Assembly (NCBI GenBank): GCA_007376295.1
Contig: VMGB01000001.1
Span: 5,030-69,029 of the forward strand
Direction: 5' to 3'
Origin: Parcubacteria group bacterium Gr01-1014_13
GTDB taxonomy: Bacteria > Patescibacteriota > Patescibacteriia > Magasanikbacterales > GWA2-37-8
DNA: 64,000 nucleotides
In this document: piece by piece, positions 1,778 to 60,141 of the stretch
How positions within the stretch are numbered: position 1 is the first letter of the stretch
Layout: each line of letters starts with the position of its first letter
The notes under the pieces: generated by a model
Told to the model about the DNA's origin: nothing
The model's input: only the letters and a program-made list of their open reading frames with translations
The model's database searches: none
Translations under genes and position numbers: made by a program

Positions 1778-1838
1778 AAAGTGGTATTATTAAACGTATA
1801 AATCAGTTAATATCTAATTTAGAAAGCGAGGTGGACTT

Positions 1839-2078: not shown

Positions 2079-2102
2079 TTTTTTACTTAATTCCATTGTC
2101 CC

Positions 2103-4124: not shown

Positions 4125-4135
4125 CCCCAACCAAC

Positions 4136-7100: not shown

Positions 7101-10100
7101 GGAAAGACAATACCTGGTATCAAGTTGTGCTCCGAAGCGGTATTACTGCTGGTGTCGGTACAAGCAGCGCTCCTTTGGCCAAGGATAAACCGTGCGGCGG
7201 AGACTCATCTTACTGTTTTGTTTTTAGGTCTGATTCCCAAGATTGTAAAATGAAACAAGTGGTAATTACTCCATACAGTTATTTTACTACTGTTTTAGAA
7301 GCGCCAATGAAACACAGGACTAATCCGGCAGATGATGGTGAAGACGTTGTTTATTCTGGACACGGATTAAGCACCCAGCATTGTATAATTATGGACACCA
7401 GCATGTTTACCTGGACTTGGGGCAGTAAAAACGCCTATTATGCCGATATTTTTTCTGCAAATAATTCTTCGGCCAAAGTTTCGGCCTTGGCCAACACTGT
7501 AGGTGTAGGTTTAACTAATCCGGAAAATGCTGTGAATGTAAACGCCACCGCCACATTGGCTTCGGCTAGTTTTGGTGGACGCAGTCCGCTCACCATAGAT
7601 TTAAGTAATCCCGAAGTGGTAGATTTCTGGCCAACTTGTTTGCAGTCTTGTACCAACGCTGAAGTGGGTGTGCGTTTTAGCACCACCATGTCGAATAAAA
7701 ATTTGCCGAGCGGTCCGATAAAATTATTAAAATGTGCTGATGAAAATTGTTTCAAGACTACTCCGGTTTTAGCAGATACAGATGTGTTTTTAGACAGCGC
7801 TACCGGATACAGAATTTTAAAACTTGCCAATTCCGGTCTTGGTTCATTAGAGCTGGAGCCAGATACTATTTATAAAGTTGTAATTTCTTCATCCACCAGC
7901 AATGTAAATTCGCCGGAGTTATTATGGTCTGCGGCCAGATTAGGTGATCCGACTACATTTTCGAAGCCATACAAAAAAGAGTTTACCTGGCGTTTTAAAA
8001 CTAAAAAAGAAAAATGTAAAATTCACCGCGTGGAGGTAGCACCGAAAAATTTCTTTGCTGAATTTGTAATTGATAGAGAACTATACAGCGCCCAACCATT
8101 TTCGTCTCCGGACACTTGTAGTGCAGCCGGACAAAAATTAAATCCTTGGATGGTAGGTTGGAACTGGACATCTTCCGCGCCTGCAGTGGCAAAGGTAACT
8201 ACTTTTAGCACCAAAGGAAGCAATCCTTACTGCACTTTGGGTTGTGTGCGTAAAGGTAGTAGTATTCCGGTCGGAGTGACAGGAATTCCAGTTTGCGGCA
8301 ATGGACAACTAGAAGCCGGGGAGGATTGTGATCCGCCGGGCAAAGGAGCTGGTTGTGGTTTAGATTGTCGAAGATTGGGAAATATTAGTACATCTACTTG
8401 TGGAAATGGAATTGTTGAGCCAAATCGCGGCGAAACATGTGACACCGGATCAGCTACTACTTCCATTGGTTGTGGCAGCAACTGTCTACGTCTTGGTTCT
8501 TCAGCGGCTACGGGCGCAACAGTTACGGGTGCCTCTATTTGCGGCAATGGTTCTATTGGTAGTGGTGAAGATTGTGATTTAGGAATTACAGCATCTTCAA
8601 CAGTGGCTATTTCAGCTATGCGTTGTTCAGACAACTGTTTACATTTAGGTACAAGATTATCTAATAACTGGTGTTTTACTAATAGTGTTGGTTTTGGCGG
8701 ATTTGCCCAAACAGAATTTCTATCTGCATGCCGGCTGGCTTTAAGCCGTTGCGGTGATGGGGTAAATAATCCAGATGAAGACACTGGATGTGATTTAGGT
8801 AATGGTAAGAAAGCTGCAAAGTGTAATGATTTTTGTTTGATTAATACTAGCAGCACTTCTCCTCTTGAATGCGTTGCCAACACCGAAGGCTGTGATCAAA
8901 ATGGTCAACATATAGGTTCTTCCTTGCTTTATAGCACACCATCGTTGTGTGGGAATGGACTGGCAGAAATTGGTGAGGATGCTTTTTGTGAAACTAATAT
9001 TATTACGATCCATACCGGATTTAACCCTTGGACTTTAGCTACTGGTATAGGCTTAGGTGTGGCTATTGGAGTTCCAGCAACTCAGCAAACGGATATAAAT
9101 GGTAGTACCAGCGAGCAAACTGCAGGTGGCGGCCCAGTAGGCAACAAAGGTAAATTTATTATTCCATGCGGATACAAAACTGATGCTGAATGTGAAGTGC
9201 GTCTGGGTAAGGGTTGGGGCGTGGCTTCGGACGGCTGTTGTTATGTGCGTCCGAAATTATCAAGTGTTTATCCGGGAAGTACTACCACAGTCCAAGCAAA
9301 TGTTTGCCCAAATACAGCTATCGAAGCTACTTTTGATGATGAGATAGATGTTTCGAGTTTAAAAAATAATATAGTATTGGCCCGCGGTGCCGGCGCCACA
9401 GCTACTTGTAGCGGCACCGAAGATGTTTCTAATTTAGTATTAAATAATCAACCAGTTGATGGAAGTAATTTGCCTTGGTACAAAAAGATTTTTGTAGTCG
9501 TAGTTAATTTCTTCAGAAATTTAGCGGGTCAAGATGTATCTGCGACCCATACCACTATCCAATCAACCAAGTGGTGCGCCGGAGAAGATCTTGGTCAAGG
9601 CGATGTGGTTGTAACCACCGGGACAGAAAGTAAAATTATTTTCAAATTAGATCAGCCGCTAGCTTTTGATACGGATTATTTTATTGCGTTAAAAGAAGGT
9701 TTACGTAGCAAGCGGGGGATAAGCATTGGGAAAAATAATACTACAAATAAACCATTAAGTTGGAAGTTTATTACCGGATCAAAAATTTGTGAGATTGATA
9801 GTGTGGCTGTAGATCCGTCACAAGTTTATTTAAACAAAGCGGGCGTCACCACCACTCTATTTGCCGATGCTTACAATGCTAGTGCGGCAAAGATTCAGGC
9901 TATACCGAGATTTTATGCCTGGCAATATTTATGGCAACCAGTCGGAAATCTTCTTGTAAATCTACAAGAGACAACCTCTTCCCGAAATATAATTTCGGCG
10001 CAAAATCGTAACGGTGAAATTGACTTGCGCGCTTCAGCGGTAATTACTGACAATATTTATTCTAACCAATTTGGCGCTGTGGCCACCGGCAAGTCCCACG

Positions 10101-10909
10101 CCATCGTCTTTTTGTGCGAAAATCCTTGGCCGCCAAAAGATTTATTCTTGGGCAATGCCGGTCCGTTTATTATTTTCCCTTATGAAGATAAGTTAGGAAA
10201 TAACGACGGCTATAGTTTGGCTGCCAGCACATTCAACAACACTCCTTTGCCACCTTCTCCTAGCGGCGGTTACTTTAATTTCAGATCTTATTACTGCGCG
10301 GATAGTGGTAGTTTTGGTACAGACGATGATTTGCCGTATTTGCGTCCGGCAGTTCAGGTGTCGAGCGCAATAGTTACTGATAGTCCTACGTCTAGTTTAA
10401 AACGATTTATTTTGACTAATACCAGAAACAACGATGCTATCGGAATGGCAGTCTTTTCTAATCCAAAACACTTAACTGTAGCCCAATGGTTTGCAACTGA
10501 CCGGGCTTTAGGCGGACAAGGATTCACTGGTAATATGCAGACTACAAAAATAGATGGCTATGATGCGCTTACGGATGGGAATAATATCTATGTAGATGCG
10601 CTTAATTATTCCGACACTGTTCCTCACAATCTTTACTCTAATATTTACTTATTTAGTATTAATGCTGATGCTCAGCCAGAGACAAAAAAAGTATTTGAAC
10701 AGATGATTGAAAATTTGCGCTTTAATGTCAATCTAACTAATTATGGTTACTGCGGCCCAACAATGGCCAACCCAGGGGCTTCCACCACTTGCCAAACTGA
10801 TTTGGATTGTTCTGGCACAGAAATTTGTTCGGTACAGACCGACAAATTAAAGAGAAATTACCAGAGACTCCGAGATCTAAATGAGATACAAAATTTATTG
10901 GGTATTTAA
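4136..10909 (+). CDS. Giant (2257 aa) secreted surface protein. It carries a TrbC/VirB2-like pilin module, Ig-like domains, about five IPT/TIG domains, Cys-rich CGNG..GE.CD (DUF4215/Myxococcus-type) repeats and further Ig-like domains.
   Basis: Signal peptide MTQRRGKILITLLFAVLATAACLWFAPAVHA, then a pilin module nearly identical to the upstream gene. TIG-like repeats are present (MRINGVSPLSGGPGTFVSISGDYFGN..., PFISSITPDRGGKGEYITITGNNFG...). Repeats CGNGQLEAGEDCDPPG / CGNGIVEPNRGETCD / CGNGSIGSGEDCD / CGDGVNNPDEDTGCD / CGNGLAEIGEDAFCE lie at nt about 8290-8990. Confidence 0.85.
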   Translation: MTQRRGKILITLLFAVLATAACLWFAPAVHAQTTNAPDLGLAPVGSSIGLPSTDIRLVVANIIRVALGLLGIVALVLIIYAGFVWMTAGGEEEKISQAKKIMVNAAIGLAIILSSYAIASFVISKLTDATTDNGGIGGPGGGGDNPYFPGGIFYVDSLPSGGQLCIRNVHLALTFNLKADISTLNDNVVVQKADGTVQPGQWESLSNTTVAFVPNGDCGSGTPDCYAANTAYTLHFKNGSAVKSANGQLGLNCAIKAGCGDVQFTTGDGVDRNPPQVKIEPIASDLLRVGNVVPVEVSYTDDNGVQKIDLTADNFFVSSQSVPGCQKSGSVTLNWPTVGISGGVHALGATGFDWSALSDSTSTNVNLLPQHCFDNTLQADLGEVKVGPPACGGECGACAGSPCTTNTQCASGFCDQVAGVCVDKMRINGVSPLSGGPGTFVSISGDYFGNTPGKVFIGATPAPLAACAIGAWKPWQIIIQVPPGAVSGPISVETAPDSGGKNFTDATNDSFGPRISDFTVNNLVRPGLCGINPVGDLPGAEVSLLGQRFSNAPGQVFFGQQSVLISLSNWTDTLIKARVPLLDVGPVAVKVSKNNLDSNSVKFFVEQGLSGTAPFISSITPDRGGKGEYITITGNNFGDQTGRIWFKENINGQPGDAIDGSFTFPAGCQNTWTDKQIIVKFPANNGSVGKSYFVQVRPADSSLGTSPLGPIFNLEAGLPSPGICNINPVSSPVPFASAAPDMKIIGENFGAAPLVYFWGPAASSTSITGRILGSSSTVTNMLVGQTISTRPLAGTISGPVVVQRKPDNKLSNPQNFSVVDCVKNNNTCTAVNTHCCMAGTESGMCKPDTELCEGETLSTGFIWRFSTKDIPKIPQVVERCDNNTDLGLNIPSPSPSTLWDTSTSGVHHSVCRTASVMVEFSLPTMNNISRTNLVVNECNPSTVNEINRTCTAVGQVNLKGTGDFVPQLSTERTDYLQLNPDASYNNGKWKDNTWYQVVLRSGITAGVGTSSAPLAKDKPCGGDSSYCFVFRSDSQDCKMKQVVITPYSYFTTVLEAPMKHRTNPADDGEDVVYSGHGLSTQHCIIMDTSMFTWTWGSKNAYYADIFSANNSSAKVSALANTVGVGLTNPENAVNVNATATLASASFGGRSPLTIDLSNPEVVDFWPTCLQSCTNAEVGVRFSTTMSNKNLPSGPIKLLKCADENCFKTTPVLADTDVFLDSATGYRILKLANSGLGSLELEPDTIYKVVISSSTSNVNSPELLWSAARLGDPTTFSKPYKKEFTWRFKTKKEKCKIHRVEVAPKNFFAEFVIDRELYSAQPFSSPDTCSAAGQKLNPWMVGWNWTSSAPAVAKVTTFSTKGSNPYCTLGCVRKGSSIPVGVTGIPVCGNGQLEAGEDCDPPGKGAGCGLDCRRLGNISTSTCGNGIVEPNRGETCDTGSATTSIGCGSNCLRLGSSAATGATVTGASICGNGSIGSGEDCDLGITASSTVAISAMRCSDNCLHLGTRLSNNWCFTNSVGFGGFAQTEFLSACRLALSRCGDGVNNPDEDTGCDLGNGKKAAKCNDFCLINTSSTSPLECVANTEGCDQNGQHIGSSLLYSTPSLCGNGLAEIGEDAFCETNIITIHTGFNPWTLATGIGLGVAIGVPATQQTDINGSTSEQTAGGGPVGNKGKFIIPCGYKTDAECEVRLGKGWGVASDGCCYVRPKLSSVYPGSTTTVQANVCPNTAIEATFDDEIDVSSLKNNIVLARGAGATATCSGTEDVSNLVLNNQPVDGSNLPWYKKIFVVVVNFFRNLAGQDVSATHTTIQSTKWCAGEDLGQGDVVVTTGTESKIIFKLDQPLAFDTDYFIALKEGLRSKRGISIGKNNTTNKPLSWKFITGSKICEIDSVAVDPSQVYLNKAGVTTTLFADAYNASAAKIQAIPRFYAWQYLWQPVGNLLVNLQETTSSRNIISAQNRNGEIDLRASAVITDNIYSNQFGAVATGKSHAIVFLCENPWPPKDLFLGNAGPFIIFPYEDKLGNNDGYSLAASTFNNTPLPPSPSGGYFNFRSYYCADSGSFGTDDDLPYLRPAVQVSSAIVTDSPTSSLKRFILTNTRNNDAIGMAVFSNPKHLTVAQWFATDRALGGQGFTGNMQTTKIDGYDALTDGNNIYVDALNYSDTVPHNLYSNIYLFSINADAQPETKKVFEQMIENLRFNVNLTNYGYCGPTMANPGASTTCQTDLDCSGTEICSVQTDKLKRNYQRLRDLNEIQNLLGI
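4265..4535 (+). repeat. Copy 2 of the duplicated pilin-module coding segment
   Basis: Aligns with 2260..2530 (STDIRLVVANIIRVALGLLGIVALVLIIYAGFVWMTAGGEEEKISQAKKIMVNAAIGLAIILSSYAIASFVISKLTDAT). Confidence 0.8.
8281..8998 (+). repeat. Tandem protein-level Cys-rich repeats (about five units of 35-60 aa, CGNG/CGDG...GE.CD...C..C) inside the giant gene
   Basis: Read directly from the translation. The copies have diverged at the nucleotide level. Confidence 0.7.
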
Positions 10910-10950
10910 GTAAAGTATGGTAAAATATTAGTGCAGATTCTCAAAATCGT

Positions 10951-13900
10951 ATGACAAAGAAAAAAATATTTTTGTTTTATTTATTCGCCATTATTTTAAC
11001 TTCGGCTTTTTTATCTCACGCAAAAGTAAAAGCTGCTAACGCGCCAGCTCTCAAAGAGGGGACATACTTAACCGGCCAAACCTTAAGCATCTGGCCTTCC
11101 TGGTCACTGCTAGGAAATTCTTTAGGCGTTAATTTACCTTCCGACCCTATAAATCAATTGGCTACTGCCGGCACCTGTGTTACCAGTACCAATAGATTCT
11201 GTATCAATGATGCCCAATGTCCGGCTGGCGAAACTTGTGTTTTACATGACCCGGAAACTGGCTGGAGCGTTGCCAACAGGCGCTTTACTTTTGCGTGCAA
11301 TAAAGATTCTTACGCTTATCGGTATATAGCTTCTACAACACCCGGTGCTTATACAGTGCGCGCTCATTTTGAAGATCCGGGGATTGCACCGGCAAATTTT
11401 AACAGTTTTGTTTCTAGTTTTGTCAGCACTAGCGTTTTTAAAATAAATGATAGTAGCGGTGTATGTAATTTTGATCAGGAAATTTCTTCCATGCAATCCG
11501 GTACTTGCGGAGATGGTAAACTTAATTTGAATAAAGGTGAACAGTGCGATCCGCCCGGCATAGTTGAATACGCTACTGGTTGTGTTGGAGCTATTAAAAA
11601 TTTAAATGTCTGCGGCAAAAATTGCAGATGGACCGCTTCTACCACTTTATGCAGCAATTTAAGTAAATGTGGTAATGGTTCCATAGAGTTTGGTGAAACC
11701 TGTGATGATGGTACTTTAAATGGAAAATATAATCATTGTAATGTTACTTGCAATGGTGTGAGTGCTTTGGGCAAGTGTGGAGATGGAACTTTACAGTCCA
11801 CTTATGAAATTTGTGATCCTAGTACGTCTGGAAAAGAAAAGTATGCTCTTAATAAAGCCGGATCTTGCAGTTGGGATTGCCAAAAATTCGGACCTTATTG
11901 TGGGGATACTATTGCCCAGACTCAATATGGTGAAGAATGTGATGGCTCGCAAGCTTGTTCGGTAGATGGAAATCCCGGTGTTCGAGTTTGTACAAATAAT
12001 TGCTTGCAACAAGACAGTAAAGCCGCAGCTTGGTGGCATTTGGAAAAGATGGTGGGTTATAAACCAGGATTAACTAACAAAACTGATGATGCTACGGTAA
12101 ATGGCAATTTGGCAATATGTCCAGTGGCTAATTGCCCGGCCACGAGTACAGGAAAATATGGTAATGGCCGTGAGTTTAATATTCCTTCTGGTGGAACAGG
12201 TGGTAAGTATTTAACTGTCGCAAGTAGCGCCAGTTTGGAAGCTACCAGCTCATTAACTGTAGAAGCATGGATTTTTCCAACTACCACTAGCAGTCTTTAT
12301 CAGAGAATTGTGGAAAAAGGAGGCCCCAGCACTGGTAAGGGTTATGATTTGGAATTTAACATTTCGGCCACTACATCTGTAGTAAGGTTTAATTTATGGA
12401 ATGGCACACAAACCTCAGTTGATTCAAAAAGTTCTATTTCTACAGGTACCTGGACGCATGTAGTTGGTACATATGTCCTAAATGGAACCAGCAATATTGC
12501 TAAAATTTATATTAATGGAGTTTTGGAAAATACAAATAGTATTATTAGGCCTACTCCGATAATGGCGAAAGATACTGGCAGTTTAGCAATTGGTAAATCT
12601 GCCGGTGCAGCTCTCACCAATTTTTTCTTTGGCAGTTTGGATGAAGTTAAAATTTATAATCACACTTTATCGGATGATGAGGTGAAAAATAATTATCAAA
12701 GCGGCTGGTATTGTACAGCTACTTCTACGCCAGTCACAGCCCCATCTGGTAGCTGTGGCGATAATATTGTAGATCCTAATGAAGCCTGTGATCGGGGAAC
12801 AGCCGATAATGGCCGCGCCTGCGCCCCAGCTTATGGCGTACCATGTTCTTATTGCTCGACAGATTGTCAGAATACTATTGAAGTCCAACCCATTGAATAT
12901 TGCGGCAACGGCATTATTGAAAGTTCAGAAAAATGCGAAGTGGCTGGCGCGAATATTTTCGCAGCCACTAACACTGTTGGCAGAACAGCTTCTGTAAAAA
13001 ATACTAGTTACAATGGTTATCAAGAGCTGGCGTGCGCGGATGAGACTCCGGTCGTTACGCATACTATAAAAAAAGGTACAAAGAGTTGCCCGGATTGTTC
13101 TTTGGGAATAATAAGAAATTGCGTGCAGTGCGGTGCGGATGTAAATGGGGTGGGCGTGGAGGGCGGTCTAATTAATGTTTTGGAAAACCCTATAACAAAC
13201 AGTTCCCGAGATCCGCTTTTTGCTAAAATTACAAGCAGCTCGCTTAGTTTATCGGTTAGCAACCGATTTCCAAGCCTTCCGCCTATCTGTAGTATAGTTG
13301 TGCCTCAGCTTCAACCGTCTGTATGCAAAGACAGGCTCACTGCTTCATCTCCGATAGTAGCTGTGGATAGGAAAAATGGAAATTCCTCAAACCTTGTTTC
13401 TTATGCCTTATTTAATCCTTACGTTAGCGGTTTTCCATCCGCTCTAGTCAATAGCGATCCCATTTGTTCCGTGAGTGATAGCTTTATTGATAAGTATCAA
13501 ATGTATGTTAATTATGACTGGTCCCGCCCGTTAAATTTCCCGGTGGTAGCCGAACCGCAATCTTGGCAATATGACTTAGTGTTTTCGCCGGTAGTTTCCA
13601 GCACTAAGCGTGCCAGAGATATAAGGGTGGTCGTAAGTTGGGTTGGATCCGGAGATTTTTATAGCGGAGTAGTTAATCCGTTTATTTCCAACCCTCAAAT
13701 AGAAGGAGCGAATTATGTTGCTCCGGGGCCATCCTATCAGTATGCTACCGGCATAAATTATTACAATTCACCAGCTGATTTCAAAAAATACGGTATCTGG
13801 TATCATGGTTTTAATGTTACTCCCGGCCAAACAAGCGCCGAGGCCTTTACAATTGATACGGCAAATATGAGTGGCAACACCTATGCATTTTATGTGCGCT

Positions 13901-14448
13901 CTCCAAGTTATCCGATCAGAATATATAAAAATACTGCTAAGTTAAAAGTGGATGTTTATTTGCCCGAACTAGACAACAGCCAGTATCATTTTGGCACTCC
14001 GGCCCGGACATATTACTTTATCTCTTCGGCTCCTTCGGATAACCAAAACGCCCGCTATTGGCAAGTGTTTAATATGAAATTTTCATCGTCAAGTTTATCC
14101 GTATCAGATATAATAGGTATAAATACGATAGTTACAGGGCCTACATACTTTAAATATACAAACCCTCTGGTTGCTAACCCCGCATGCACAGAGGCGGATT
14201 GGCGTGCGACTACACCTCTAGTATTTTGTGCGATAGGGTCAACAAAAACACTAACTTGGACAAAATTAACAAATTGTGTTGGTGGGGTACAGCATCCGCC
14301 CACAGAGGTTGTCTCTTGTGGCGATCCGCAACAATCTCCCACTACCCAACAGACCCAAACAACTCAAACAAGCCAACCGGCTATCGGCACTAAAAATGTT
14401 TCCCAACCCATTATTTCCCAACCTACCACCAATCAACAGAGCCCATAG
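10951..14448 (+). CDS. Large (1165 aa) secreted protein with DUF4215-type Cys-rich repeats, a LamG/concanavalin-like domain and a Thr/Gln-rich C-terminal tail
   Basis: Signal peptide MTKKKIFLFYLFAIILTSAFLSHAKVKA. Repeats CGDGKLNLNKGEQCDPPG / CGNGSIEFGETCDDG / CGDGTLQSTYEICDP / CGDNIVDPNEACD / CGNGIIESSEKCE. LamG-like block NGNLAICPV...YDLEFN...KIYINGV...SLDEVKIYNHTLSDDEV. The tail reads TTQQTQTTQTSQP. Confidence 0.8.
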   Translation: MTKKKIFLFYLFAIILTSAFLSHAKVKAANAPALKEGTYLTGQTLSIWPSWSLLGNSLGVNLPSDPINQLATAGTCVTSTNRFCINDAQCPAGETCVLHDPETGWSVANRRFTFACNKDSYAYRYIASTTPGAYTVRAHFEDPGIAPANFNSFVSSFVSTSVFKINDSSGVCNFDQEISSMQSGTCGDGKLNLNKGEQCDPPGIVEYATGCVGAIKNLNVCGKNCRWTASTTLCSNLSKCGNGSIEFGETCDDGTLNGKYNHCNVTCNGVSALGKCGDGTLQSTYEICDPSTSGKEKYALNKAGSCSWDCQKFGPYCGDTIAQTQYGEECDGSQACSVDGNPGVRVCTNNCLQQDSKAAAWWHLEKMVGYKPGLTNKTDDATVNGNLAICPVANCPATSTGKYGNGREFNIPSGGTGGKYLTVASSASLEATSSLTVEAWIFPTTTSSLYQRIVEKGGPSTGKGYDLEFNISATTSVVRFNLWNGTQTSVDSKSSISTGTWTHVVGTYVLNGTSNIAKIYINGVLENTNSIIRPTPIMAKDTGSLAIGKSAGAALTNFFFGSLDEVKIYNHTLSDDEVKNNYQSGWYCTATSTPVTAPSGSCGDNIVDPNEACDRGTADNGRACAPAYGVPCSYCSTDCQNTIEVQPIEYCGNGIIESSEKCEVAGANIFAATNTVGRTASVKNTSYNGYQELACADETPVVTHTIKKGTKSCPDCSLGIIRNCVQCGADVNGVGVEGGLINVLENPITNSSRDPLFAKITSSSLSLSVSNRFPSLPPICSIVVPQLQPSVCKDRLTASSPIVAVDRKNGNSSNLVSYALFNPYVSGFPSALVNSDPICSVSDSFIDKYQMYVNYDWSRPLNFPVVAEPQSWQYDLVFSPVVSSTKRARDIRVVVSWVGSGDFYSGVVNPFISNPQIEGANYVAPGPSYQYATGINYYNSPADFKKYGIWYHGFNVTPGQTSAEAFTIDTANMSGNTYAFYVRSPSYPIRIYKNTAKLKVDVYLPELDNSQYHFGTPARTYYFISSAPSDNQNARYWQVFNMKFSSSSLSVSDIIGINTIVTGPTYFKYTNPLVANPACTEADWRATTPLVFCAIGSTKTLTWTKLTNCVGGVQHPPTEVVSCGDPQQSPTTQQTQTTQTSQPAIGTKNVSQPIISQPTTNQQSP

Positions 14449-14494
14449 CGAGCTTTGCTGCATGGGAGTTTAAATAATATTATAAATAGCGCAT

Positions 14495-14890
14495 ATGATG
14501 GGAACAAATAAAAAAATTATAATCTTATTAGTTGTTTTGGCGCTGGGGGGAGCGGGGGTTTTGGCTTACAAAAAATTTATTTCATCCAAACAAGTGGATA
14601 AAAATTTAGCACCATCATCTAGTTCTTCTCTAGATGAAGCAAGACAGCAGGAATTTGACGATGCCATAAAGAAAACTTCTGCCTCGGATCAAGATATGGA
14701 TGGAATTCCAGATAATGAAGAAGCAAAATACAAAACCAGTGTTACATCTTCTGATACAGACGAAGACGGCTTACCAGATCATCAAGAAATTTTTAATTTT
14801 AAAACTGATCCGCTAAAAGCAGACACCGATGATGATGGTTCTGCAGATGGGTACGAAGTGCGTCGCGGCTCAGATCCTAAAAAGATTTAA
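14495..14890 (+). CDS. Small membrane-anchored protein with thrombospondin-type-3-like DxDxDG calcium-binding repeats
   Basis: N-terminal TM segment IIILLVVLALGGAGVLAY, then DQDMDGIPDNEE, DTDEDGLPDHQE and TDPLKADTDDDGSADGYE. Confidence 0.6.
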   Translation: MMGTNKKIIILLVVLALGGAGVLAYKKFISSKQVDKNLAPSSSSSLDEARQQEFDDAIKKTSASDQDMDGIPDNEEAKYKTSVTSSDTDEDGLPDHQEIFNFKTDPLKADTDDDGSADGYEVRRGSDPKKI

Positions 14891-14915
14891 TTTTTATCAT
14901 TTATTACTCGATTAT

Positions 14916-15689
14916 ATGTTTGATGAGCAAAACCAAAATTCAGGCGCGCCCAAAAATTTACCAGCCGAACCAGTAGATATGTTTGCTGGAGTAGAAAAAG
15001 ATGAAGGGAAGTTAGGGCAAATGCCGCCATCTAGCCCGGATGCTTTGTCTGCTGGCCGGTTGAGTCCTAAGGGGGCTCCTGCGATAAAAAAAGAAGAAGC
15101 GCCTATCTCACCTCATTTATCAAATGTCGGTCATGAACTAAAAATGAGTACGCCTATTTTGGGGAAAATATTATTATTTTTAGCGGTAGTTTTGTTATTA
15201 GGCGGTTTGGCCTACGGCGGTTGGTGGTTTATGTATGGTAGTAAAAATAAATCCGCTAAATTACCCGCAACGACCACCGAGCAGACTGTTCAAAATCAAA
15301 CTTCTGGCGTAACTAATACCACCAATATTCCTGCGCAGATAAATAATGATCAGATTTTATTTGGACAAGCAGTTGATAGCGATAAAGATGGGTTAGATGA
15401 TGTACGTGAAAAAGAGATTGGCACTGATCCGCAAAAATTAGATTCTGATATTGATGGTTTAAATGATGGTGATGAAGTTATTATATACAAGACTAATCCT
15501 TTATTTGCAGATACAGACACAGACGGTCTAAGCGATGGCGATGAGATTCTTATTTGGCGCTCTAACCCTTTGAATATGGATACCGATGGTGATAGTTATA
15601 AAGATGGTGAAGAAGTGAGAAATGGCTATAGTCCTGTTGGGCCTGGAAAACTATTTAGCGCACCGTCTTCCACAGCTACAGGCACTTAA
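14916..15689 (+). CDS. Membrane-anchored protein with TSP3-like DxDxDG repeats. The start is taken at the internal ATG of listed ORF 14829..15689.
   Basis: ATG at 14916 lies downstream of the previous stop at 14890. TM segment ILGKILLFLAVVLLLGGLAYGGWWF. Repeats DSDKDGLDDVRE, DSDIDGLNDGDE, TNPLFADTDTDGLSDGDE and SNPLNMDTDGDSYKDGEE. Confidence 0.65.
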   Translation: MFDEQNQNSGAPKNLPAEPVDMFAGVEKDEGKLGQMPPSSPDALSAGRLSPKGAPAIKKEEAPISPHLSNVGHELKMSTPILGKILLFLAVVLLLGGLAYGGWWFMYGSKNKSAKLPATTTEQTVQNQTSGVTNTTNIPAQINNDQILFGQAVDSDKDGLDDVREKEIGTDPQKLDSDIDGLNDGDEVIIYKTNPLFADTDTDGLSDGDEILIWRSNPLNMDTDGDSYKDGEEVRNGYSPVGPGKLFSAPSSTATGT

Positions 15690-15696
15690 ACTATAT

Positions 15697-16857
15697 ATGT
15701 TTGGAAAAAAAGAGGAAATAAGTACAAAAAATGATCCGATGAGTAAGGTTCCGAGTGATGGGCAAACTATAAGTGTGCAGACAATTCCTGCAGATTTTTA
15801 TGGCGGTGTAAATCCAGTCGTGAAATTTAAAAAAGTAGAAAAAGAAGTGTTGCTGGAATCAAAATCAAAGCTGACTCCGTCAGAAAAGAAAGTTCTTGAT
15901 AAAAGCACGGCTGCAGGCAAGGATTCGCTTTTGCATCCGGTCAATATTTTGACCAATAAAAAATATGCGATAATTTTTGGATCTTCTCTTTTCGTGCTTA
16001 TTGTGGCCGGGGTGAGCGTCTATTATTATCTACAACTTCGACAGCCAAAGATTTCTCTGCCGCCACAACCGGAAATTAGCATTCCTACTACCAGCGAGCT
16101 GACACCAGTAGCGGTAGAAAGTCCGACCGAAGAGCCCGCTGTTACTAGTACTGCGCCTCAATCTTTAGCAGAAGCGCCGATAGAATTTCCGTCCAGTCTT
16201 TTAGGAGATAGTCCGGATTTGGATAAAGACAGCCTGACAGACACTGCTGAAGAGTTGTTTGGTACCGACCCAAGCAAGCCAGATACTGATGAAGATAGTT
16301 ATAACGATGGCCATGAAGTTTTTTATCTGTATAATCCGGCTGGCAAAGAGCCCTTGAAATTAATCGACTCTGGTTTTGTAAAGGATTATAATAATCCAGT
16401 GTTTGGTTATAAAGTTTTTTATCCGTCAACTTGGGCTGTGGGCAATGTGGATGAAGGTTATCGAGATGTTTTGTTTAGTACGATTACCGGTGAGAACATA
16501 GAACTTCGGGTGTTTGATCGATTGTCAAACCAGACATTTGCAGACTGGTTTGCGCAGTGGGCGCCAACCGAGCAATATCAAAATTTGAAAGATTTTCAAA
16601 CTAAATTCGGACAGTCAGGTAAAAGCAGGGCAGATAGCTTGGTATATTATTTTATGGACGATAACCATGTATATGTGGTAGTTTACCATACCACAGATTC
16701 CAATGTGGTTAATTATCGGTCCGTAATGGCGATGATGGCAAGGAGTTTTAGAACTCCTGGGTTCACTGCTTCGGAAGCAGTCCCACCACCAAATGCGGAA
16801 ACAAATACTTTCCCTACTGAAATGCCTACCGCCATAAACGCTCCAGAATCCCAATAA
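15697..16857 (+). CDS. Membrane-anchored protein with TSP3-like repeats and a C-terminal domain resembling the PsbP/DUF1795 fold (tentative). The start is taken at the internal ATG of listed ORF 15622..16857.
   Basis: ATG at 15697 lies immediately after the upstream stop at 15687-15689. TM segment AIIFGSSLFVLIVAGVSVYYYL. Repeats DSPDLDKDSLTDTAEELFGTDPSKPDTDEDSYNDGHE. C-terminal block FGYKVFYPSTWAV... Confidence 0.6.
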   Translation: MFGKKEEISTKNDPMSKVPSDGQTISVQTIPADFYGGVNPVVKFKKVEKEVLLESKSKLTPSEKKVLDKSTAAGKDSLLHPVNILTNKKYAIIFGSSLFVLIVAGVSVYYYLQLRQPKISLPPQPEISIPTTSELTPVAVESPTEEPAVTSTAPQSLAEAPIEFPSSLLGDSPDLDKDSLTDTAEELFGTDPSKPDTDEDSYNDGHEVFYLYNPAGKEPLKLIDSGFVKDYNNPVFGYKVFYPSTWAVGNVDEGYRDVLFSTITGENIELRVFDRLSNQTFADWFAQWAPTEQYQNLKDFQTKFGQSGKSRADSLVYYFMDDNHVYVVVYHTTDSNVVNYRSVMAMMARSFRTPGFTASEAVPPPNAETNTFPTEMPTAINAPESQ

Positions 16858-16862
16858 TAAGT

Positions 16863-17288
16863 ATGTTATCTTTAGATTTTAATAAACGGGTAAAATGTCC
16901 GTGGACACAGAGTGAGATCGAAAAAATATTTAGAGTAATCGAAAAGAAAATAAAAGCCAGCGGAGACTTGGAGATAAATATAGTTGGCGACAAAGAAATA
17001 AAGGATTTGAATTTTAGATACAGAGGAAAAAATAAAGTAACGGACGTGCTCGCATTTGCCTGGCAGGAAGACGGAGTGATAAAAACAAACAGTTTAGGAC
17101 AGATTTATATTTGCTACCCCCAGATTGTTCGTCAGGCAAAAGAATTCAAGGTGAAAATCAAGGAAGAATTTGTCCGAATGTTGGCCCACGGATTTTTACA
17201 TATTATGGGGCACGATCATGAAAAAAAGAAAGAAGCGGAAATAATGTTTAAAATTCAGGAAGAAATAGTAGATGAATATCTTAACTAA
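16863..17288 (+). CDS. ybeY: rRNA maturation endoribonuclease YbeY
   Basis: HGFLHIMGHDH zinc-binding motif; 141 aa. Confidence 0.9.
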   Translation: MLSLDFNKRVKCPWTQSEIEKIFRVIEKKIKASGDLEINIVGDKEIKDLNFRYRGKNKVTDVLAFAWQEDGVIKTNSLGQIYICYPQIVRQAKEFKVKIKEEFVRMLAHGFLHIMGHDHEKKKEAEIMFKIQEEIVDEYLN

Positions 17289-17294
17289 CCCAGT

Positions 17295-17660
17295 ATGTCT
17301 TTGCGTAGATTGCTAAAAAGTTTTGTGGATGCAATACGGGGGTTAAAGCACGTTTTTAAATCAGAACAAAATTTTAGAATCCAAGTGCTGGTCGGTTTTT
17401 TGGTTTTGGCAGCGGCAGTTTATTTCCCTCTTCGTAGTTGGGAAGTAATACTCATTGTTTTATTGGTATTATTAGTTTTATTAGTCGAGATCTTGAATAC
17501 AGTTTTTGAATATTTTAGCGATTTGCTTAAGCCGCGTTTGCATCACTATGTGGGCGTTATAAAAGATGTTATGGCTGGAGCAGTTTTGCTTACATCGCTG
17601 GTGGCAACAGTTGTAGGAATAATAATCTTTTATCCATACTTGGAAAACTTGCTTAAGTAA
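17295..17660 (+). CDS. dgkA: Diacylglycerol/undecaprenol kinase family membrane protein
   Basis: 121 aa with 3 TM segments and the EILNTVFEYFSD motif of the prokaryotic DAGK family. It follows ybeY as in many bacteria. Confidence 0.8.
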   Translation: MSLRRLLKSFVDAIRGLKHVFKSEQNFRIQVLVGFLVLAAAVYFPLRSWEVILIVLLVLLVLLVEILNTVFEYFSDLLKPRLHHYVGVIKDVMAGAVLLTSLVATVVGIIIFYPYLENLLK

Positions 17661-17677
17661 TGATATAATGGTGTTGT

Positions 17678-18934
17678 ATGAAAAGTAGCCAAGGAAATTT
17701 AATTGGCGGTTTGGATATCGGATCAAATTCGGTACGCATGGCCGTAGGGCAATTGCTGGGAAAAGAAAACGGCAATCTTGAGTTACAAATTTTAGGCGCG
17801 GCTGAGTTTTCTTCCGAAGGGGTGCAAAAAGGAGTGGTAAACAGCATTGAAGATGTGGTTTCTTCTATTTCCGCCTGTCTGGAACGAGTCGAGAGAATGG
17901 TGGGAGTGCCTATAGACAGTGTTTGGGTAGGTATATCCGGATTACACATTTTATCTCAAAGCAGTAAGGGTGTTGTGGCCGTATCCAAAGCCAACAGTGA
18001 AATAACCGAAGAGGATGTAAATCGTGCTCTTGAGGCCGCTAGATCAATAGCTACACCTTTAAATTATGAAGTTCTTCATGTTTTGCCACGACATTACACG
18101 GTAGATGGGCAAACCAGCATTAAAGATCCAACATCAATGACCGGAGTACGTCTGGAAGTCGATACTCAAATTATTTTGGGTTCATCTTCGCAAATAAAAA
18201 ATTTGACTAAGGCCGTTTATCGAGCCGGCTTGGATATAGAGGATTTAGTTTTATCTATTATCGCTACCTCGGAAATCGTGGTTACCAAACGCCAGAAAGA
18301 ATTGGGCGTGATGGTCGTTAATGTGGGAGGAACCACTACTGCCATGGCAGTATTTGAAGAAGGAGAGTTGATTCATACCGCTATTATTCCTCTTGGTTCG
18401 CAAAATATTACTAATGATATCGCTATGGGACTACAGATACCGCCTGAAGATATTGCTGAACGAGTAAAAATAGAATACGGAGACTGTAATCCAGATTCAA
18501 CTAATAAAAGAGATGAAGTTGATTTGTTTGATATAGGGGCAGCGGATCACCAGATAGTAAAAAAGAAATTTTTAAGCGAAATAGTTTCTGCTCGCGTGGA
18601 AGAAATTTTACAAAAAGTTGATGATGAACTTCGAAAAATACAACGTTCCGGCATGTTGCCGGCGGGTGTAGTATTTACTGGCGCCGGAGCCAAGCTTCCG
18701 GGATTGGTAGGGTTGGCAAAGAAAGTTTTGCGATTGCCAGCGAATTTGGGCTATCCCCTTAATGTGGTAAGTGTAACTGACAAAGTTAACGATCTCGGTT
18801 TTGCAACAGCTGTAGGGCTGGTCAAATGGGGGAGTGAAATGCAAGGCAAAGCCCATGGCCAAAAGCCGGGTAGCAAAAAAATCGGTGATTTTTTTGGACG
18901 GCTTAAAAAAGGATTGAGCGACCTTATTCCTTAG
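17678..18934 (+). CDS. ftsA: Cell division protein FtsA
   Basis: Actin-like ATPase pattern LIGGLDIGSNSVRMAVGQ...VNVGGTTTAMAVFEEG, immediately upstream of ftsZ. Confidence 0.9.
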   Translation: MKSSQGNLIGGLDIGSNSVRMAVGQLLGKENGNLELQILGAAEFSSEGVQKGVVNSIEDVVSSISACLERVERMVGVPIDSVWVGISGLHILSQSSKGVVAVSKANSEITEEDVNRALEAARSIATPLNYEVLHVLPRHYTVDGQTSIKDPTSMTGVRLEVDTQIILGSSSQIKNLTKAVYRAGLDIEDLVLSIIATSEIVVTKRQKELGVMVVNVGGTTTAMAVFEEGELIHTAIIPLGSQNITNDIAMGLQIPPEDIAERVKIEYGDCNPDSTNKRDEVDLFDIGAADHQIVKKKFLSEIVSARVEEILQKVDDELRKIQRSGMLPAGVVFTGAGAKLPGLVGLAKKVLRLPANLGYPLNVVSVTDKVNDLGFATAVGLVKWGSEMQGKAHGQKPGSKKIGDFFGRLKKGLSDLIP

Positions 18935-19071
18935 TTGTGCATATTGGAAGGGATTTTTCTTGACAGTAAAAACTATTAACTATAAACTATACAACGGAGG
19001 TCACTCCGTTATTTTATTTATAAACGTATTGGATACAAAATTTGTTCAAGCACCTCTTTCATTCTTAATTA

Positions 19072-20301
19072 TTGAATATGCCTCAAGTAAAACCAGATAT
19101 AGAAACATTCGCCAAGATAAAAGTTATTGGCGTCGGTGGATCAGGAGGATCGGCAGTAAATCGAATGGTTGGAGGCCGCATTCGCGGAGTAGATTTTGTT
19201 GCCATGAACACAGATGTCCAGGCTTTGCATCATAGTTCGGCTCCGCAAAAATTACATATTGGAAAAAGCGTTACTCGCGGACTGGGCGCGGGTATGGATC
19301 CTGATGTTGGCCGAAAAGCTGCCGAAGAAACTCAGAATGAAATCAGAGATTTGGTAAAAGATGCAGATATGGTTTTTGTTACTTGTGGTTTGGGTGGAGG
19401 TACTGGTTCGGGAGCTGCGCCTGTCGTGGCTTCGGTAGCTAAAGAAGCTGGAGCGCTGACAATAGCCGTGGTTACAAAACCTTTTGGTTTTGAAGGTCCT
19501 CAACGCAGAGATATTGCCGATAAAGCATGGGAGCAGTTGGCTCGGAATGTGGATGCAATTATTACTATTCCTAATGATCGTATTTTGCAGATCATAGATA
19601 AAAAAACAACTCTGCTGGAATCATTTAAAATTGTTGATGATGTTTTGCGTCAAGGCGTCCAGGGAATCGCGGAACTCATTACTATTCCGGGACTTATTAA
19701 CGTAGATTTCGCAGACGTAAAAACAATTATGCGCGATGCGGGTTCTGCCTTGATGGGTATTGGAGTGGGTGAGGGTGAAAACAAAGCAGCTGACGCAGCC
19801 AAGTCTGCTATATCCAGTCCATTGCTCGAACTGTCCATAGATGGAGCCAGAGGCATACTATTTACTATTACTGGCGGTCCGGATATGACTATGACTGAAG
19901 TAAGCGAAGCGGCAAAAATAGTTACCAGCTCGGCAGCCGAAAATGCAAAAGTGATTTTTGGCGCTACGATTGATGAATCCATGAAAGATTGTATACGTAT
20001 TGCAGTTATTGCTACCGGCTTTGATGACCGCCGGCCTAGTTTGCCAGCGATTGAAGAGGAGCAGCCAACCCCTTCATTTTTTTCTGGTGGCAACAAATTT
20101 ATGTCCAGTAATTTCATGAGAAAAGTGCAAAAAGACGAAGAGGAAGAAGAAAAAAAGTTTAAACAAATTATCCATAACAATAATATTTCTTCCCAGCCAC
20201 CAATGCCCAAGTCTCCGCCACCCCAGCAACCCAAAGACAAGAATAATGGTGAAGATGAATTGGAGATACCCGCATTTATTAGAAAAAAGATGGGGATTTA
20301 A
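19072..20301 (+). CDS. ftsZ: Cell division GTPase FtsZ
   Basis: [28 protein letters not shown] and the C-terminal [12 protein letters not shown] peptide. Confidence 0.95.
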
Positions 20302-20315
20302 TTATCCGCTAAACT

Positions 20316-20346
20316 AAAACAACACCCATTCAGGGGTGTTGTTTTA
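20316..20346 (+). terminator. Rho-independent terminator after ftsZ
   Basis: Perfect 10-bp stem aacaacaccc/gggtgttgtt followed by a T-run. Confidence 0.7.
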
Positions 20347-20387
20347 ATAAAAAGCGCAGTGTATAATAGAAAGCGAAATGTTAAATT

Positions 20388-20840
20388 ATGCGTTGTCCTG
20401 TTTGTAATAATAGAGAAATTAGCGTGGTTGATACGCGCCCATCTGAGGACGATTTGTCTATTCGTCGTCGTCGGGAATGTGATAAATGCCAATCCCGTTT
20501 TTCTACCGTTGAAGAAATGGAATTATTGGACGTCATCGTGGTAAAAAGCGATGGGCATCGGGAAATTTATATGCGTGATAAATTAGAAAGTGGCATTAAA
20601 ATGGCTTTGACCAAACGATCATATACCAGAGATAATTTTCATCGTTTGATACACTCTATTGAACGTGATATCCAAAGAAAGAAATCGAAAGAAATATCTA
20701 GTAAGGAATTGGGTGAAGTAGTTATCAAGCATCTACGCAGTTTCGATAAAGTCGCCTATATTAGATTTGCCAGTGTCTACCGTGATTTTAGAGACGTGCG
20801 TACTTTTGAAAAGGAGCTAAAGAAGTTAGGAGCTAAATAA
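20388..20840 (+). CDS. nrdR: Transcriptional repressor NrdR
   Basis: MRCPVCNN...CDKCQSRF zinc ribbon plus ATP-cone; 150 aa. An extended -10 element TGTATAAT lies upstream at about 20359-20368. Confidence 0.92.
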   Translation: MRCPVCNNREISVVDTRPSEDDLSIRRRRECDKCQSRFSTVEEMELLDVIVVKSDGHREIYMRDKLESGIKMALTKRSYTRDNFHRLIHSIERDIQRKKSKEISSKELGEVVIKHLRSFDKVAYIRFASVYRDFRDVRTFEKELKKLGAK

Positions 20841-59550: not shown

Positions 59551-60141
59551 ATGGTAGAGGAACAGGCAAGTGCAGGACTATCAAAAGAACAAAAGATAGG
59601 AGTGATTTTACTATCTGTTTTTTCTGTTTTTGCTATCGGTTTAGGTATTTTGCAAATCAGAAATACGATGTACGCGCCTTTTTCTCTTAGTAAAAAAATT
59701 CCTCCTTTGATTAGGGATGATATAAACAGTACCGAAGCTTTGATGTATCGCGATACTGATAAAGACGGGTTAAACGATTTTGATGAATTGTATGTTTATG
59801 CTACCAGTCCTTATTTGGCTGATACTGATTCTGATGGTCTGGAAGACAAAGCTGAAGTTGATAAAGGTTCAGATCCGCTGTGTGCAGAAGGTCAGAGTTG
59901 TGGCGAAGTGGGTGTGAGTGAAGATGTTTTGCTCGGCGCTCCTATTATTCCTTCCGTCACTTCTACTTTGGGTCCAGAGCCTTCGCCAGAGGATATTAAT
60001 AAAATTTTAAGCGATCCGGCGCAGGTCCGCAAGATATTATTGGATTCAGGTTTGGATAAAAAAATAATAGACGCAACTTCCGATGCTGATTTGATGAAAA
60101 TGGTAAAAGATATTCTAAGTGCTAGTAGCACTGAGCTATAA
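59551..60141 (+). CDS. Membrane-anchored protein with TSP3-like DxDxDG calcium-binding repeats, the fourth member of this type in the window
   Basis: TM segment IGVILLSVFSVFAIGLGIL, then DTDKDGLNDFDE and SPYLADTDSDGLEDKAEVDKGSDPLC. The start is taken at the ATG at 59551, downstream of an extended -10 element TGTGATACAAT. Confidence 0.55.
   Translation: MVEEQASAGLSKEQKIGVILLSVFSVFAIGLGILQIRNTMYAPFSLSKKIPPLIRDDINSTEALMYRDTDKDGLNDFDELYVYATSPYLADTDSDGLEDKAEVDKGSDPLCAEGQSCGEVGVSEDVLLGAPIIPSVTSTLGPEPSPEDINKILSDPAQVRKILLDSGLDKKIIDATSDADLMKMVKDILSASSTEL

What the first reader, a model, noticed from the sequence alone, without database searches (positions are those of the whole stretch)
14495..16857. 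Three consecutive membrane-anchored proteins with thrombospondin-type-3-like DxDxDG calcium-binding repeats directly downstream of the giant-protein array
Genes 14495..14890, 14916..15689 and 15697..16857 each encode a short N-terminus, one TM helix and several repeats of the form (T)DP...DTDxDGLxDGDE. This matches the TSP3 / OmpA-linker calcium-binding motif. The third gene adds a PsbP/DUF1795-like C-terminal domain. A fourth protein of the same type is encoded at 59551..60141, immediately upstream of another giant secreted protein. Co-occurrence with the giant genes at both loci suggests a functional partnership, for example Ca2+-dependent anchoring or assembly of the giant surface proteins. 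TSP3 repeats are not a feature usually noted in CPR genomes.
Basis: partly seen in the sequence, partly recalled or inferred. Interest (0 to 1): 0.65.

Follow-up and report, generated by a model that had tools for sequence, protein, structure and literature searches.

The report
Calcium-repeat membrane proteins beside giant genes
Four small single-pass membrane proteins in this Magasanikbacteria-like (CPR) genome carry 2-4 bacterial thrombospondin-type-3 calcium-binding repeats and sit right next to giant secreted proteins, probably as calcium-stiffened tethers or adaptors, though no function has been shown.

Summary
Genes 14495-14890, 14916-15689, 15697-16857 and 59551-60141 each encode one TM helix followed by 3, 4, 2 and 2 repeats of D-x-D-x-D-G-x-x-D-x-x-E plus a short helix, with a 22-23 aa period. 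The motif occurs 11 times in the six-frame translation (about 0.01 expected), always in these four genes.

Pfam TSP3_bac (PF18884) passes its threshold for g1, g2 and g4. g3 fails alone but is homologous to g2's first and last repeats. Eukaryotic TSP_3, OmpA_C and dockerin models do not match. The only solved relative is the calcium-sensing EF-hand pair of S. aureus Bap.

The g3 C-terminal domain has a PsbP/Mog1-type fold. g2 and g3 have long, conserved cytoplasmic tails, not short N-termini.

Synteny:
- Giant, (g1), g2, g3, ybeY, dgkA, ftsA, ftsZ is kept in about 80 Magasanikbacteria species, but the whole region is collinear there, so this is weak evidence.
- g4 followed by the giant secreted protein is stronger. 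It holds in 19 of 21 informative loci, down to 29% identity, including Komeilibacteria and Falkowbacteria, with gaps of 1-42 nt in 17 of the 19.

Verdict: these are new members of a known repeat family. A tether or adaptor role for the giants is plausible, best supported for g4, and unproven.

The parts
14495..14890 (+). g1: 131 aa, very short N-terminus, TM aa 4-29, three TSP3_bac repeats (aa 65-121 = nt 14687-14857), ending in the cap GYEVRRGSDP
   Evidence: (45.3 bits). An orthologue is present in most Magasanikbacteria loci but absent in a subclade of about 14.
14916..15689 (+). g2: 257 aa. Conserved cytoplasmic tail (aa 1-78, nt 14916-15149; MFDxQ..P.NLPxEPxDMFAG..PDALSAGLLKKK), TM aa about 80-110, low-complexity linker, four repeats (aa 154-233, nt 15375-15614), C-cap NGYxPxGPGKLF, Ser/Thr-rich tail
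   Evidence: (55.7 bits, 4 stretches). AF2 model: repeat region pLDDT 70-91, a short helix after each loop. Matches Bap 7c7u at rmsd 0.9 A.
15697..16857 (+). g3: 386 aa. Conserved cytoplasmic tail (aa 1-88, nt 15697-15960; [IM]P.[DE]FY[GA]G.NP..KFK ... LHP.N), TM aa about 88-115, Pro/Glu/Thr linker, two cap repeats (aa 174-207, nt 16216-16317), PsbP/Mog1-fold domain (aa about 220-355, nt 16354-16761)
   Evidence: C-terminal domain pLDDT mostly 86-95 in 10-residue blocks, one block at 69; PsbP, BT_1490, Tsi3, SciW; hhalign to g2 repeats 99.1%, E 1.6e-18.
59551..60141 (+). g4: 196 aa. TM aa 13-38, conserved juxtamembrane LQIRNTMYAPF, two repeats (aa 68-102, nt 59752-59856), invariant Cys pair C111/C117 (nt 59881-59901), C-terminal helix motif (aa about 155-190, nt 60013-60120)
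   Evidence: (25.7 bits).
60147..64000 (+). giantC: secreted giant protein starting 5 nt after g4 and running off the window. The orthologue in L082 is 2597 aa with a signal peptide, no other TM, 96 Cys and one CBM_4_9 domain
2103..4124 (+). giantA: 673 aa, T4SS_pilin-type N-terminal head plus Big_5
4136..10909 (+). giantB: 2257 aa, T4SS_pilin-type head, Big_5, TIG. Fused with the next gene into one ORF of more than 3000 aa in most relatives
10951..14448 (+). Secreted 1165 aa Laminin_G_3 protein, ending 46 nt upstream of g1
16863..20301 (+). ybeY, dgkA, ftsA, ftsZ on the same strand, starting 5 nt after g3 and separated by gaps of 6, 17 and 137 nt. Context genes, not claimed as functional parts
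   Evidence: The only good terminator-like hairpin, at 18993-19010, lies between ftsA and ftsZ.

Best explanation
g1-g4 are paralogous bitopic proteins of the cytoplasmic membrane, N-terminus inside and C-terminus outside. Just outside the membrane each displays a short array of EF-hand-like loop-plus-helix repeats of the bacterial TSP3 type.

Each 12-residue loop (ligand positions 1, 3, 5, 9, 12) is expected to bind one Ca2+. Binding would turn an acidic, otherwise floppy segment into a rigid module.

The most likely use of this module is as a membrane-proximal tether or adaptor for the giant secreted or surface proteins encoded in the same transcription units. g4 would serve the anchorless 2600 aa Cys-rich giantC. 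g2 and g3, with g1 as an optional extra, would serve the pilin-headed giant or LamG protein. This resembles how dockerins or the TSP3 protein CglD hold adhesion complexes in a calcium-dependent way.

g2 and g3 also carry conserved disordered cytoplasmic tails that should dock an unknown intracellular partner. g3 adds a PsbP-fold binding domain outside.

Shown: architecture, repeat family, conservation of the ligand positions, paralogy, operon-like adjacency and its conservation. Inferred: Ca2+ binding, outside orientation, and the partnership with the giants.
For: Repeat identity:
- Pfam TSP3_bac passes the threshold for g1, g2 and g4.
- The g3 repeats are homologous to g2's first and last repeats (hhalign 99.1%).
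- All four proteins are mutually similar over their repeats.

Calcium ligands:
- Positions 1, 3, 5, 9 and 12 are invariant in the g2, g3 and g4 families at 48-54% mean column identity, apart from one position each in g2 repeat 3 and g3 repeat 1 at 90% or more.
- The only solved relative is the EF-hand 2/3 module of S. aureus Bap: profile E 2.7e-7, model superposition 0.9 A over 43 columns at 46% identity.
- In Bap, mutating positions 1, 3 and 12 abolishes calcium sensing (PMC7785521).

Outside orientation:
- The ectodomains are acidic.
- g4 has an invariant Cys pair.

Partnership, g4:
- A giantC homologue follows g4 in 19 of 21 metagenome loci with downstream sequence, at g4 identities down to 29%. 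The gap is 1-42 nt in 17 of the 19.
- These loci include Komeilibacteria, Falkowbacteria and other Parcubacteria.
- Two loci have lost the upstream ksgA neighbour but keep the pair.
- giantC has a signal peptide but no membrane anchor.

Partnership, g1-g3:
- Giant, (g1), g2, g3 is kept in essentially all of about 75 Magasanikbacteria loci with enough flank.
- Where g1 is absent, g2's reading frame opens within about 80 nt of the end of the giant ORF (stop-to-stop bounds).

Precedent: the TSP3 (DxDxDG) lipoprotein CglD anchors an adhesin machine in a calcium-dependent way (bioRxiv 10.1101/2023.10.19.562135).
Against: - There is no direct evidence of Ca2+ binding or of any contact with the giants.
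- For g1-g3, conserved synteny is uninformative. The same loci keep ybeY, dgkA, ftsA, ftsZ and the next genes downstream (50/51, 49/51, 41/51). No genome was found in which the cluster is broken.
- ksgA is also usually kept upstream of g4, so part of the g4 linkage may reflect general collinearity.
- Two g4-like loci (L087, L103) lack a giant downstream.
- Flanking K/R counts do not by themselves fix the topology.
- The conserved cytoplasmic tails of g2 and g3 are not explained by a purely extracellular tether role.
- Promoter and terminator scans do not differ from shuffles, so co-transcription is inferred from spacing only.
Confidence: 0.45

Rival explanations
1. General envelope scaffolds. 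The proteins are housekeeping, calcium-binding spacers or cation reservoirs at the membrane-wall interface of a small monoderm-like cell, comparable to the TSP3 linker of OmpA-family proteins. They have no specific link to the giants. Adjacency would reflect the frozen gene order of streamlined CPR genomes.
For: - The whole region from the giants to beyond ftsZ is collinear across the clade, including functionally unrelated genes.
- ksgA, g4 and giantC are also mostly collinear.
- Repeat number varies (2-4) and g1 is dispensable, as expected for a spacer.
- The best non-family sequence hits are OmpA-TSP3 proteins.
Against: - The g4-giantC pairing survives to 29% identity, across several candidate phyla, and through loss of the upstream neighbour, with gaps of 1-42 nt in 17 of 19 pairs.
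- Both TSP3 loci in the window touch giant genes.
- There is no OmpA_C or other wall-binding domain.
Confidence: 0.25
2. Division or cytoskeleton-linked bitopic proteins. g2 and g3 use their conserved cytoplasmic tails to contact the FtsA/FtsZ machinery encoded 2-3 genes downstream. They would couple it to the wall or surface through their ectodomains, in the manner of MapZ, FtsN or ZipA.
For: - g3, ybeY, dgkA, ftsA and ftsZ are on one strand, with gaps of 5-17 nt as far as ftsA and no terminator-like site before the ftsA-ftsZ gap.
- This order is invariant in about 80 species.
- Both tails are invariant short linear motifs within predicted-disordered regions.
- No FtsQ/DivIB-like gene lies upstream of ftsA in this locus.
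Against: - The g3 motif [IM]P.[DE]FY[GA]G.NP does not match the FtsZ C-terminal peptide of this genome ([12 protein letters not shown]). The P-to-F spacing differs.
- ybeY and dgkA intervene and are unrelated to division.
- g1 and g4 lack such tails.
- No structural hit to FtsQ, FtsN or MapZ.
- The tail motif is confined to the g3 family.
Confidence: 0.12
3. Calcium sensors or switches. As with Bap, the EF-hand-like pairs would report external Ca2+ and change the protein's state (aggregation, adhesion or signalling through the cytoplasmic tails) rather than act as a static tether.
For: - The closest solved and experimentally characterised relative is the Bap EF-hand 2/3 sensor.
- g2 and g3 span the membrane with conserved tails on the inside.
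Against: - There is no output domain on the cytoplasmic side, and the tails are short disordered peptides.
- None of Bap's amyloidogenic region or lobes is present.
- g1 and g4 have no cytoplasmic part to signal with.
Confidence: 0.1

Closest known systems
Pfam PF18884 'Bacterial TSP3 repeat' proteins, e.g. Myxococcus CglD and MtsC/MtsD
   Same: Same repeat family: HMM above threshold for g1, g2 and g4, and weak NCBIfam alignments to CglD and MtsD repeats. Same DxDxDG calcium motif. CglD anchors or stabilises a surface adhesion machine in a calcium-dependent way.
   Different: CglD is a 1130 aa outer-membrane lipoprotein with 12 repeats and a VWA domain in a diderm. Here the proteins are 131-386 aa, anchored by one TM helix in the cytoplasmic membrane of a CPR cell, with only 2-4 repeats. 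All NCBIfam scores are far below the equivalog cut-offs.
EF-hand 2/3 module of Staphylococcus aureus Bap (PDB 7c7r, 7c7u)
   Same: Only solved sequence relative of all three family profiles. The two-repeat unit of the g2 model superposes at 0.9 A with 46% identity. It is extracellular in a Gram-positive, and its calcium dependence is shown by mutagenesis.
   Different: Bap is a 2276 aa surface protein whose module sits between two lobes and controls amyloid-like aggregation. None of the rest of Bap is present here.
OmpA-family proteins with a TSP3 linker (Dai et al. 2017, cited)
   Same: Repeat region of g2 is 44-59% identical to jgi OmpA-TSP3 proteins. Membrane-proximal position.
   Different: No beta-barrel and no OmpA_C peptidoglycan-binding domain. 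No Cys in the g1-g3 repeats, whereas the OmpA TSP3 structure depends on intra-repeat disulfides (title cited). The database name 'Peptidoglycan-associated outer membrane protein' on homologues is therefore unsupported.
Dockerin-cohesin anchoring (cellulosome)
   Same: Works-like only. Tandem segments of about 22 residues, each a 12-residue calcium loop followed by a helix, used to dock large secreted proteins to a cell-bound partner.
   Different: No Dockerin_1 match at E<=1. No cohesin-like domain identified in the giants. Here the calcium module would be on the anchor rather than on the cargo.
PsbP / Mog1 / DUF1795 (DcrB, Eag/SciW, Tsi3) fold
   Same: The g3 C-terminal domain (pLDDT about 90) gives Foldseek hits to BT_1490, PsbP, Tsi3 and SciW (E 5e-4 to 0.4, target TM 0.3-0.53). 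Pfam PsbP hits weakly in 23 of 26 relatives.
   Different: Window protein scores 13.9 bits against a cut-off of 23.5. No DUF1795 sequence hit. There is no photosystem or T6SS context, and the ligand is unknown.

Membership tests
Pfam PF18884 TSP3_bac | HMM score at or above the gathering threshold (25 bits) | tested here: met
   g1 45.3, g2 55.7, g4 25.7 bits. g4 only just passes.
Pfam PF18884 TSP3_bac (g3 only) | HMM score at or above the gathering threshold | tested here: inconclusive
   No hit at E<=1 for the window protein. Seven of 26 relatives hit at E<=0.1, best 1.9e-4. Profile-profile match to the g2 repeats is 99.1%, E 1.6e-18.
Pfam PF18884 TSP3_bac | Conserved acidic ligand positions D1-x-D3-x-D5-G-x-x-D9-x-x-E12 in tandem units of about 22 aa | tested here: met
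   Eleven motifs at 22-23 aa spacing. Ligand positions are invariant across orthologues, apart from two positions at 90% or more.
Pfam PF18884 TSP3_bac | Binds Ca2+ | not testable with these tools
   Inferred from the Bap EF-hand 2/3 mutagenesis and the 0.9 A superposition.
Eukaryotic thrombospondin type 3 repeat (Pfam PF02412 TSP_3) | HMM match | tested here: not met
   Not among the hits at E<=1 for any of the four proteins.
Eukaryotic thrombospondin type 3 repeat (Pfam PF02412 TSP_3) | Disulfide-bonded Cys within the repeats | tested here: not met
   No Cys at all in the g1-g3 ectodomains. g4 has two Cys, located after the repeats.
OmpA-family peptidoglycan-associated proteins | OmpA_C (PF00691) domain | tested here: not met
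   Absent from all four proteins. Present only in unrelated OmpA-TSP3 hits such as P0184 and P0219.
PsbP family (PF01789), g3 C-terminus | HMM at or above 23.5 bits | tested here: not met
   13.9 bits, E 0.057. Twenty-three of 26 relatives match at E<=0.1, best 1e-5.
PsbP/Mog1 superfold, g3 C-terminus | Structural similarity of a confident model | tested here: met
DUF1795 (PF08786) | HMM match | tested here: not met
   Not among the families hit by any of the 26 members. Only fold-level hits to SciW at E 0.14-0.4.
Dockerin (PF00404) | HMM match | tested here: not met
   No hit at E<=1.

The most novel reading that the evidence does not exclude
Parcubacteria-type CPR bacteria have a dedicated, ancient two-component surface system. 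A small TM-anchored calcium-repeat protein (g4 type) is translationally coupled to, and physically holds, an anchorless 2600 aa Cys-rich giant. A paralogous set (g2, g3, sometimes g1) bridges pilin-headed giants to a cytoplasmic partner through conserved tails. This would be a calcium-gated trans-membrane anchoring system for the organelles that CPR cells use to attach to hosts.
Probability: 0.25. Interest if true: 0.7.

Novelty: new member of a known kind. Interest (0 to 1): 0.4.

Why it matters
CPR bacteria are thought to live attached to other cells. Their giant surface proteins are prime candidates for that attachment, yet how anchorless giants are held on the cell is unknown.

A conserved, tightly coupled small membrane partner with calcium-binding repeats gives a concrete, testable handle: a two-gene unit found across several candidate phyla. 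It also flags three uncharacterised protein families (g2, g3, g4 types) whose conserved cytoplasmic or C-terminal motifs have no assigned function.

If the pairing is only frozen gene order, the finding reduces to routine annotation of TSP3_bac repeat proteins.

Tried and rejected
1. 'g1 tethers the free LamG protein.' g1 is missing only where giantB and LamG are fused, but the fusion is also common with g1 present (35 loci). There is no correlation.
2. g3 cytoplasmic motif as a widespread docking motif. A phmmer search of aa 1-90 against 1.84 billion representatives gave 49 hits. Apart from some short fragments and two spurious repeat proteins, all are g3-family sized, so the motif is family-specific.
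3. g3 motif as a mimic of the FtsZ C-terminal peptide. The P-to-F spacing and downstream residues differ from this genome's [12 protein letters not shown]. This was compared by eye only.
4. N-terminal homology between g2 and g3. hhalign reports only the repeat region.
5. Promoter and terminator scan of 1800-20500. Counts do not differ from shuffles.
6. DNA tandem repeats and Rfam families in the region: none.
7. Identity of giantC: no PDB sequence relative, and only a CBM_4_9 domain.
9. Literature searches for TSP3 in CPR or Patescibacteria found nothing relevant.
10. The positive-inside rule does not settle the topology.
Full report
**Source and setting.** The g3 protein is identical to a protein of 'Parcubacteria group bacterium Gr01-1014_13' on a 495 kb contig. 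All close relatives are Candidatus Magasanikbacteria, a CPR/Patescibacteria lineage. All genes discussed are on the + strand.

**Observation.** The four ORFs are present as described.
- Alignments of relatives fix the starts at 14916 (MFDEQ) and 15697 (MFGKK). The public record for g2 starts 29 codons too early (P0121, 286 aa).
- Each protein has a single strongly hydrophobic helix.
- The loop motif D.[DN].D[GSDN]..[DN]..[ED] occurs 11 times in the six-frame translation of the window, always inside these four genes. About 0.004-0.015 occurrences are expected.
- The units are 22-23 aa apart. In both AF2 models each loop is followed by a short helix, a loop-helix unit like an EF-hand without its entering helix.
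- There is no repeat at the DNA level and no Rfam family in the region.

**Repeat family.**
- Pfam TSP3_bac (PF18884) is above its gathering score for g1 (45.3 bits), g2 (55.7) and g4 (25.7). g3 gets no hit.
- The g3 family profile aligns to the first and last repeats of the g2 family with 99.1% probability, and seven of 26 g3 relatives hit TSP3_bac weakly.
- g1, g2 and g3 share a terminal cap (D.D.D..xDGxEVxxGxNPxGxGKL) and are clearly paralogues. g4 shares the repeats.
- The eukaryotic TSP_3 model, OmpA_C, Dockerin_1 and DUF1795 do not match. The repeats of g1-g3 contain no cysteine.
- The ligand positions 1, 3, 5, 9 and 12 are invariant across orthologues whose mean column identity is only 48-54%, apart from two positions conserved at 90% or more.
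- The only solved sequence relative of all three family profiles is the EF-hand 2/3 module of S. aureus Bap. The g2 model superposes on it at 0.9 A over 43 columns.
- In Bap, mutating loop positions 1, 3 and 12 abolishes the response to calcium (PMC7785521).
- Calcium binding by g1-g4 is therefore a well-founded inference, not a result.

**Other parts of the proteins.**
- g2 and g3 do not have short N-termini. Their 78 and 88 aa tails are predicted disordered but contain invariant motifs: g2 has NLPxEPxDMFAG and PDALSAGLLKKK; g3 has [IM]P.[DE]FY[GA]G.NP and LHP.N.
- The g3 tail is confined to its own family among 1.84 billion representatives.
- The g3 C-terminal domain is modelled with pLDDT about 90. 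Its best PDB matches are BT_1490, PsbP, Tsi3 and SciW, and 23 of 26 relatives hit Pfam PsbP weakly. It has a PsbP/Mog1-type fold, but family membership is not established.
- g4 has an invariant Cys pair after its repeats, which argues for an extracytoplasmic location. It also has a C-terminal helix motif that is repeated 1-3 times in distant relatives.

**Synteny, locus 1.**
- A scan of one genome per species gave 80 Magasanikbacteria loci.
- In essentially all loci with enough flank the order is giantB, LamG, g1, g2, g3, ybeY, dgkA, ftsA, ftsZ, at g3 identities of 37-84%.
- However, the four to five genes beyond ftsZ are equally conserved (50/51, 49/51, 41/51). The clade is simply collinear here, and the adjacency does not single out the giants over ybeY, dgkA, ftsA and ftsZ.
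- In most relatives giantB and the LamG protein form one ORF of more than 3000 aa.
- In a subclade of about 14 loci g1 is absent and g2's reading frame opens within about 80 nt of the end of that ORF. The conserved core is therefore giant, g2, g3.

**Synteny, locus 2.**
- A metagenome scan with the g4 family returned 27 loci with g4-like genes at 29-57% identity.
- Of the 21 with downstream sequence, 19 have a giantC homologue next. Most of these are ORFs of more than 2000 aa that run off the fetched flank.
- The gap between the g4 stop and the giantC ATG is 1-42 nt in 17 of the 19. L087 and L103 are the exceptions without a giant.
- Exact look-ups place some of these loci in Komeilibacteria, Falkowbacteria and other Parcubacteria.
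- Two loci have lost ksgA upstream but keep the pair.
- The full-length orthologue of giantC is 2597 aa, with a signal peptide, no other TM segment, 96 Cys and only a CBM_4_9 domain. It needs something to keep it on the cell.
- This is the strongest evidence for a specific partnership.

**Mechanism.** I commit to the following at about 0.45 confidence.
- These are N-in, C-out membrane anchors.
- Their calcium-loaded repeat arrays form a rigid membrane-proximal docking or spacer module for the neighbouring giants.
- g2 and g3 additionally connect to an unknown cytoplasmic partner.
- A precedent for TSP3 proteins holding adhesion machinery in a calcium-dependent way is CglD.

**Rivals.**
- General envelope scaffold with frozen gene order (0.25).
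- Division-linked bitopic proteins (0.12).
- Bap-like calcium switch (0.1).

**Novelty.** The repeat family is known, and homologues already carry PF18884 hits or the name 'thrombospondin type 3 repeat-containing protein'. I found no paper discussing TSP3 proteins in CPR or their pairing with giant genes. I rate the finding a new member of a known kind. It carries a moderately interesting, testable hypothesis, the conserved g4-giantC unit.

Noticed in passing
window 14829-14915: The public annotation of g2 (P0121, 286 aa) starts at 14829 and overlaps g1. All 22 aligned relatives begin MFD[DE]Q, which corresponds to 14916, so the deposited start is probably 29 codons too early.
   Followed up: yes
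window 4136-14448; loci L019-L081: giantB and the LamG protein are a single ORF of more than 3000 aa in most Magasanikbacteria relatives. They are split into two genes, the second with its own signal peptide, only in the window's close subclade.
   Followed up: partly
window 15697-15960 and 14916-15149: The cytoplasmic tails of g3 and g2 contain invariant short linear motifs within predicted-disordered regions: [IM]P.[DE]FY[GA]G.NP and NLPxEPxDMFAG. The partner is unknown. The g3 motif is restricted to its own family.
   Followed up: partly
window 60013-60120; L088, L091, L100, L103, L105: The g4 C-terminal helix motif (P.Q[IV]R.LL...G......[ST]D[AE][DE]L) is present in 1-3 copies in distant relatives. 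No known family matches it.
   Followed up: no
window 60147-64000; L082 8622-16412: giantC is a secreted protein of about 2600 aa conserved across several Parcubacteria lineages. It has 96 Cys, one CBM_4_9 domain, no membrane anchor and no solved sequence relative.
   Followed up: partly
loci L003, L004, L006 and many others (record titles): Many public MAG records that carry this typical Magasanikbacteria locus are titled 'uncultured Gammaproteobacteria bacterium' or 'Candidatus Udaeobacter sp.', which looks like mislabelled taxonomy.
   Followed up: no
L103 12059-12307: A partial second copy of the C-terminal part of the g4-like gene lies about 3.4 kb downstream of the intact gene, with unrelated ORFs in between (one ABC-ATPase-like). 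This suggests an insertion and may explain why no giant follows g4 in this locus.
   Followed up: no
window 18993-19010: The only convincing + strand terminator-like hairpin between 1800 and 20500 lies between ftsA and ftsZ. The run from the giants to ftsA may therefore be one long transcription unit.
   Followed up: no
homologues P0147, P0241, P0017, P0226, P0431, P0409, P0352: Automated names on members of these families are not backed by any domain found here: 'Peptidoglycan-associated outer membrane protein', 'Fibronectin type III', 'S-layer domain protein', 'IclR-like regulator' and 'RodZ'.
   Followed up: partly
L018 3267-4145: In one relative the gene at the g1/g2 position is a single 293 aa ORF with 4 repeats and a lipoprotein-like N-terminus (...VVAGFGCSKQ). 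It lacks the g2 cytoplasmic tail.
   Followed up: no
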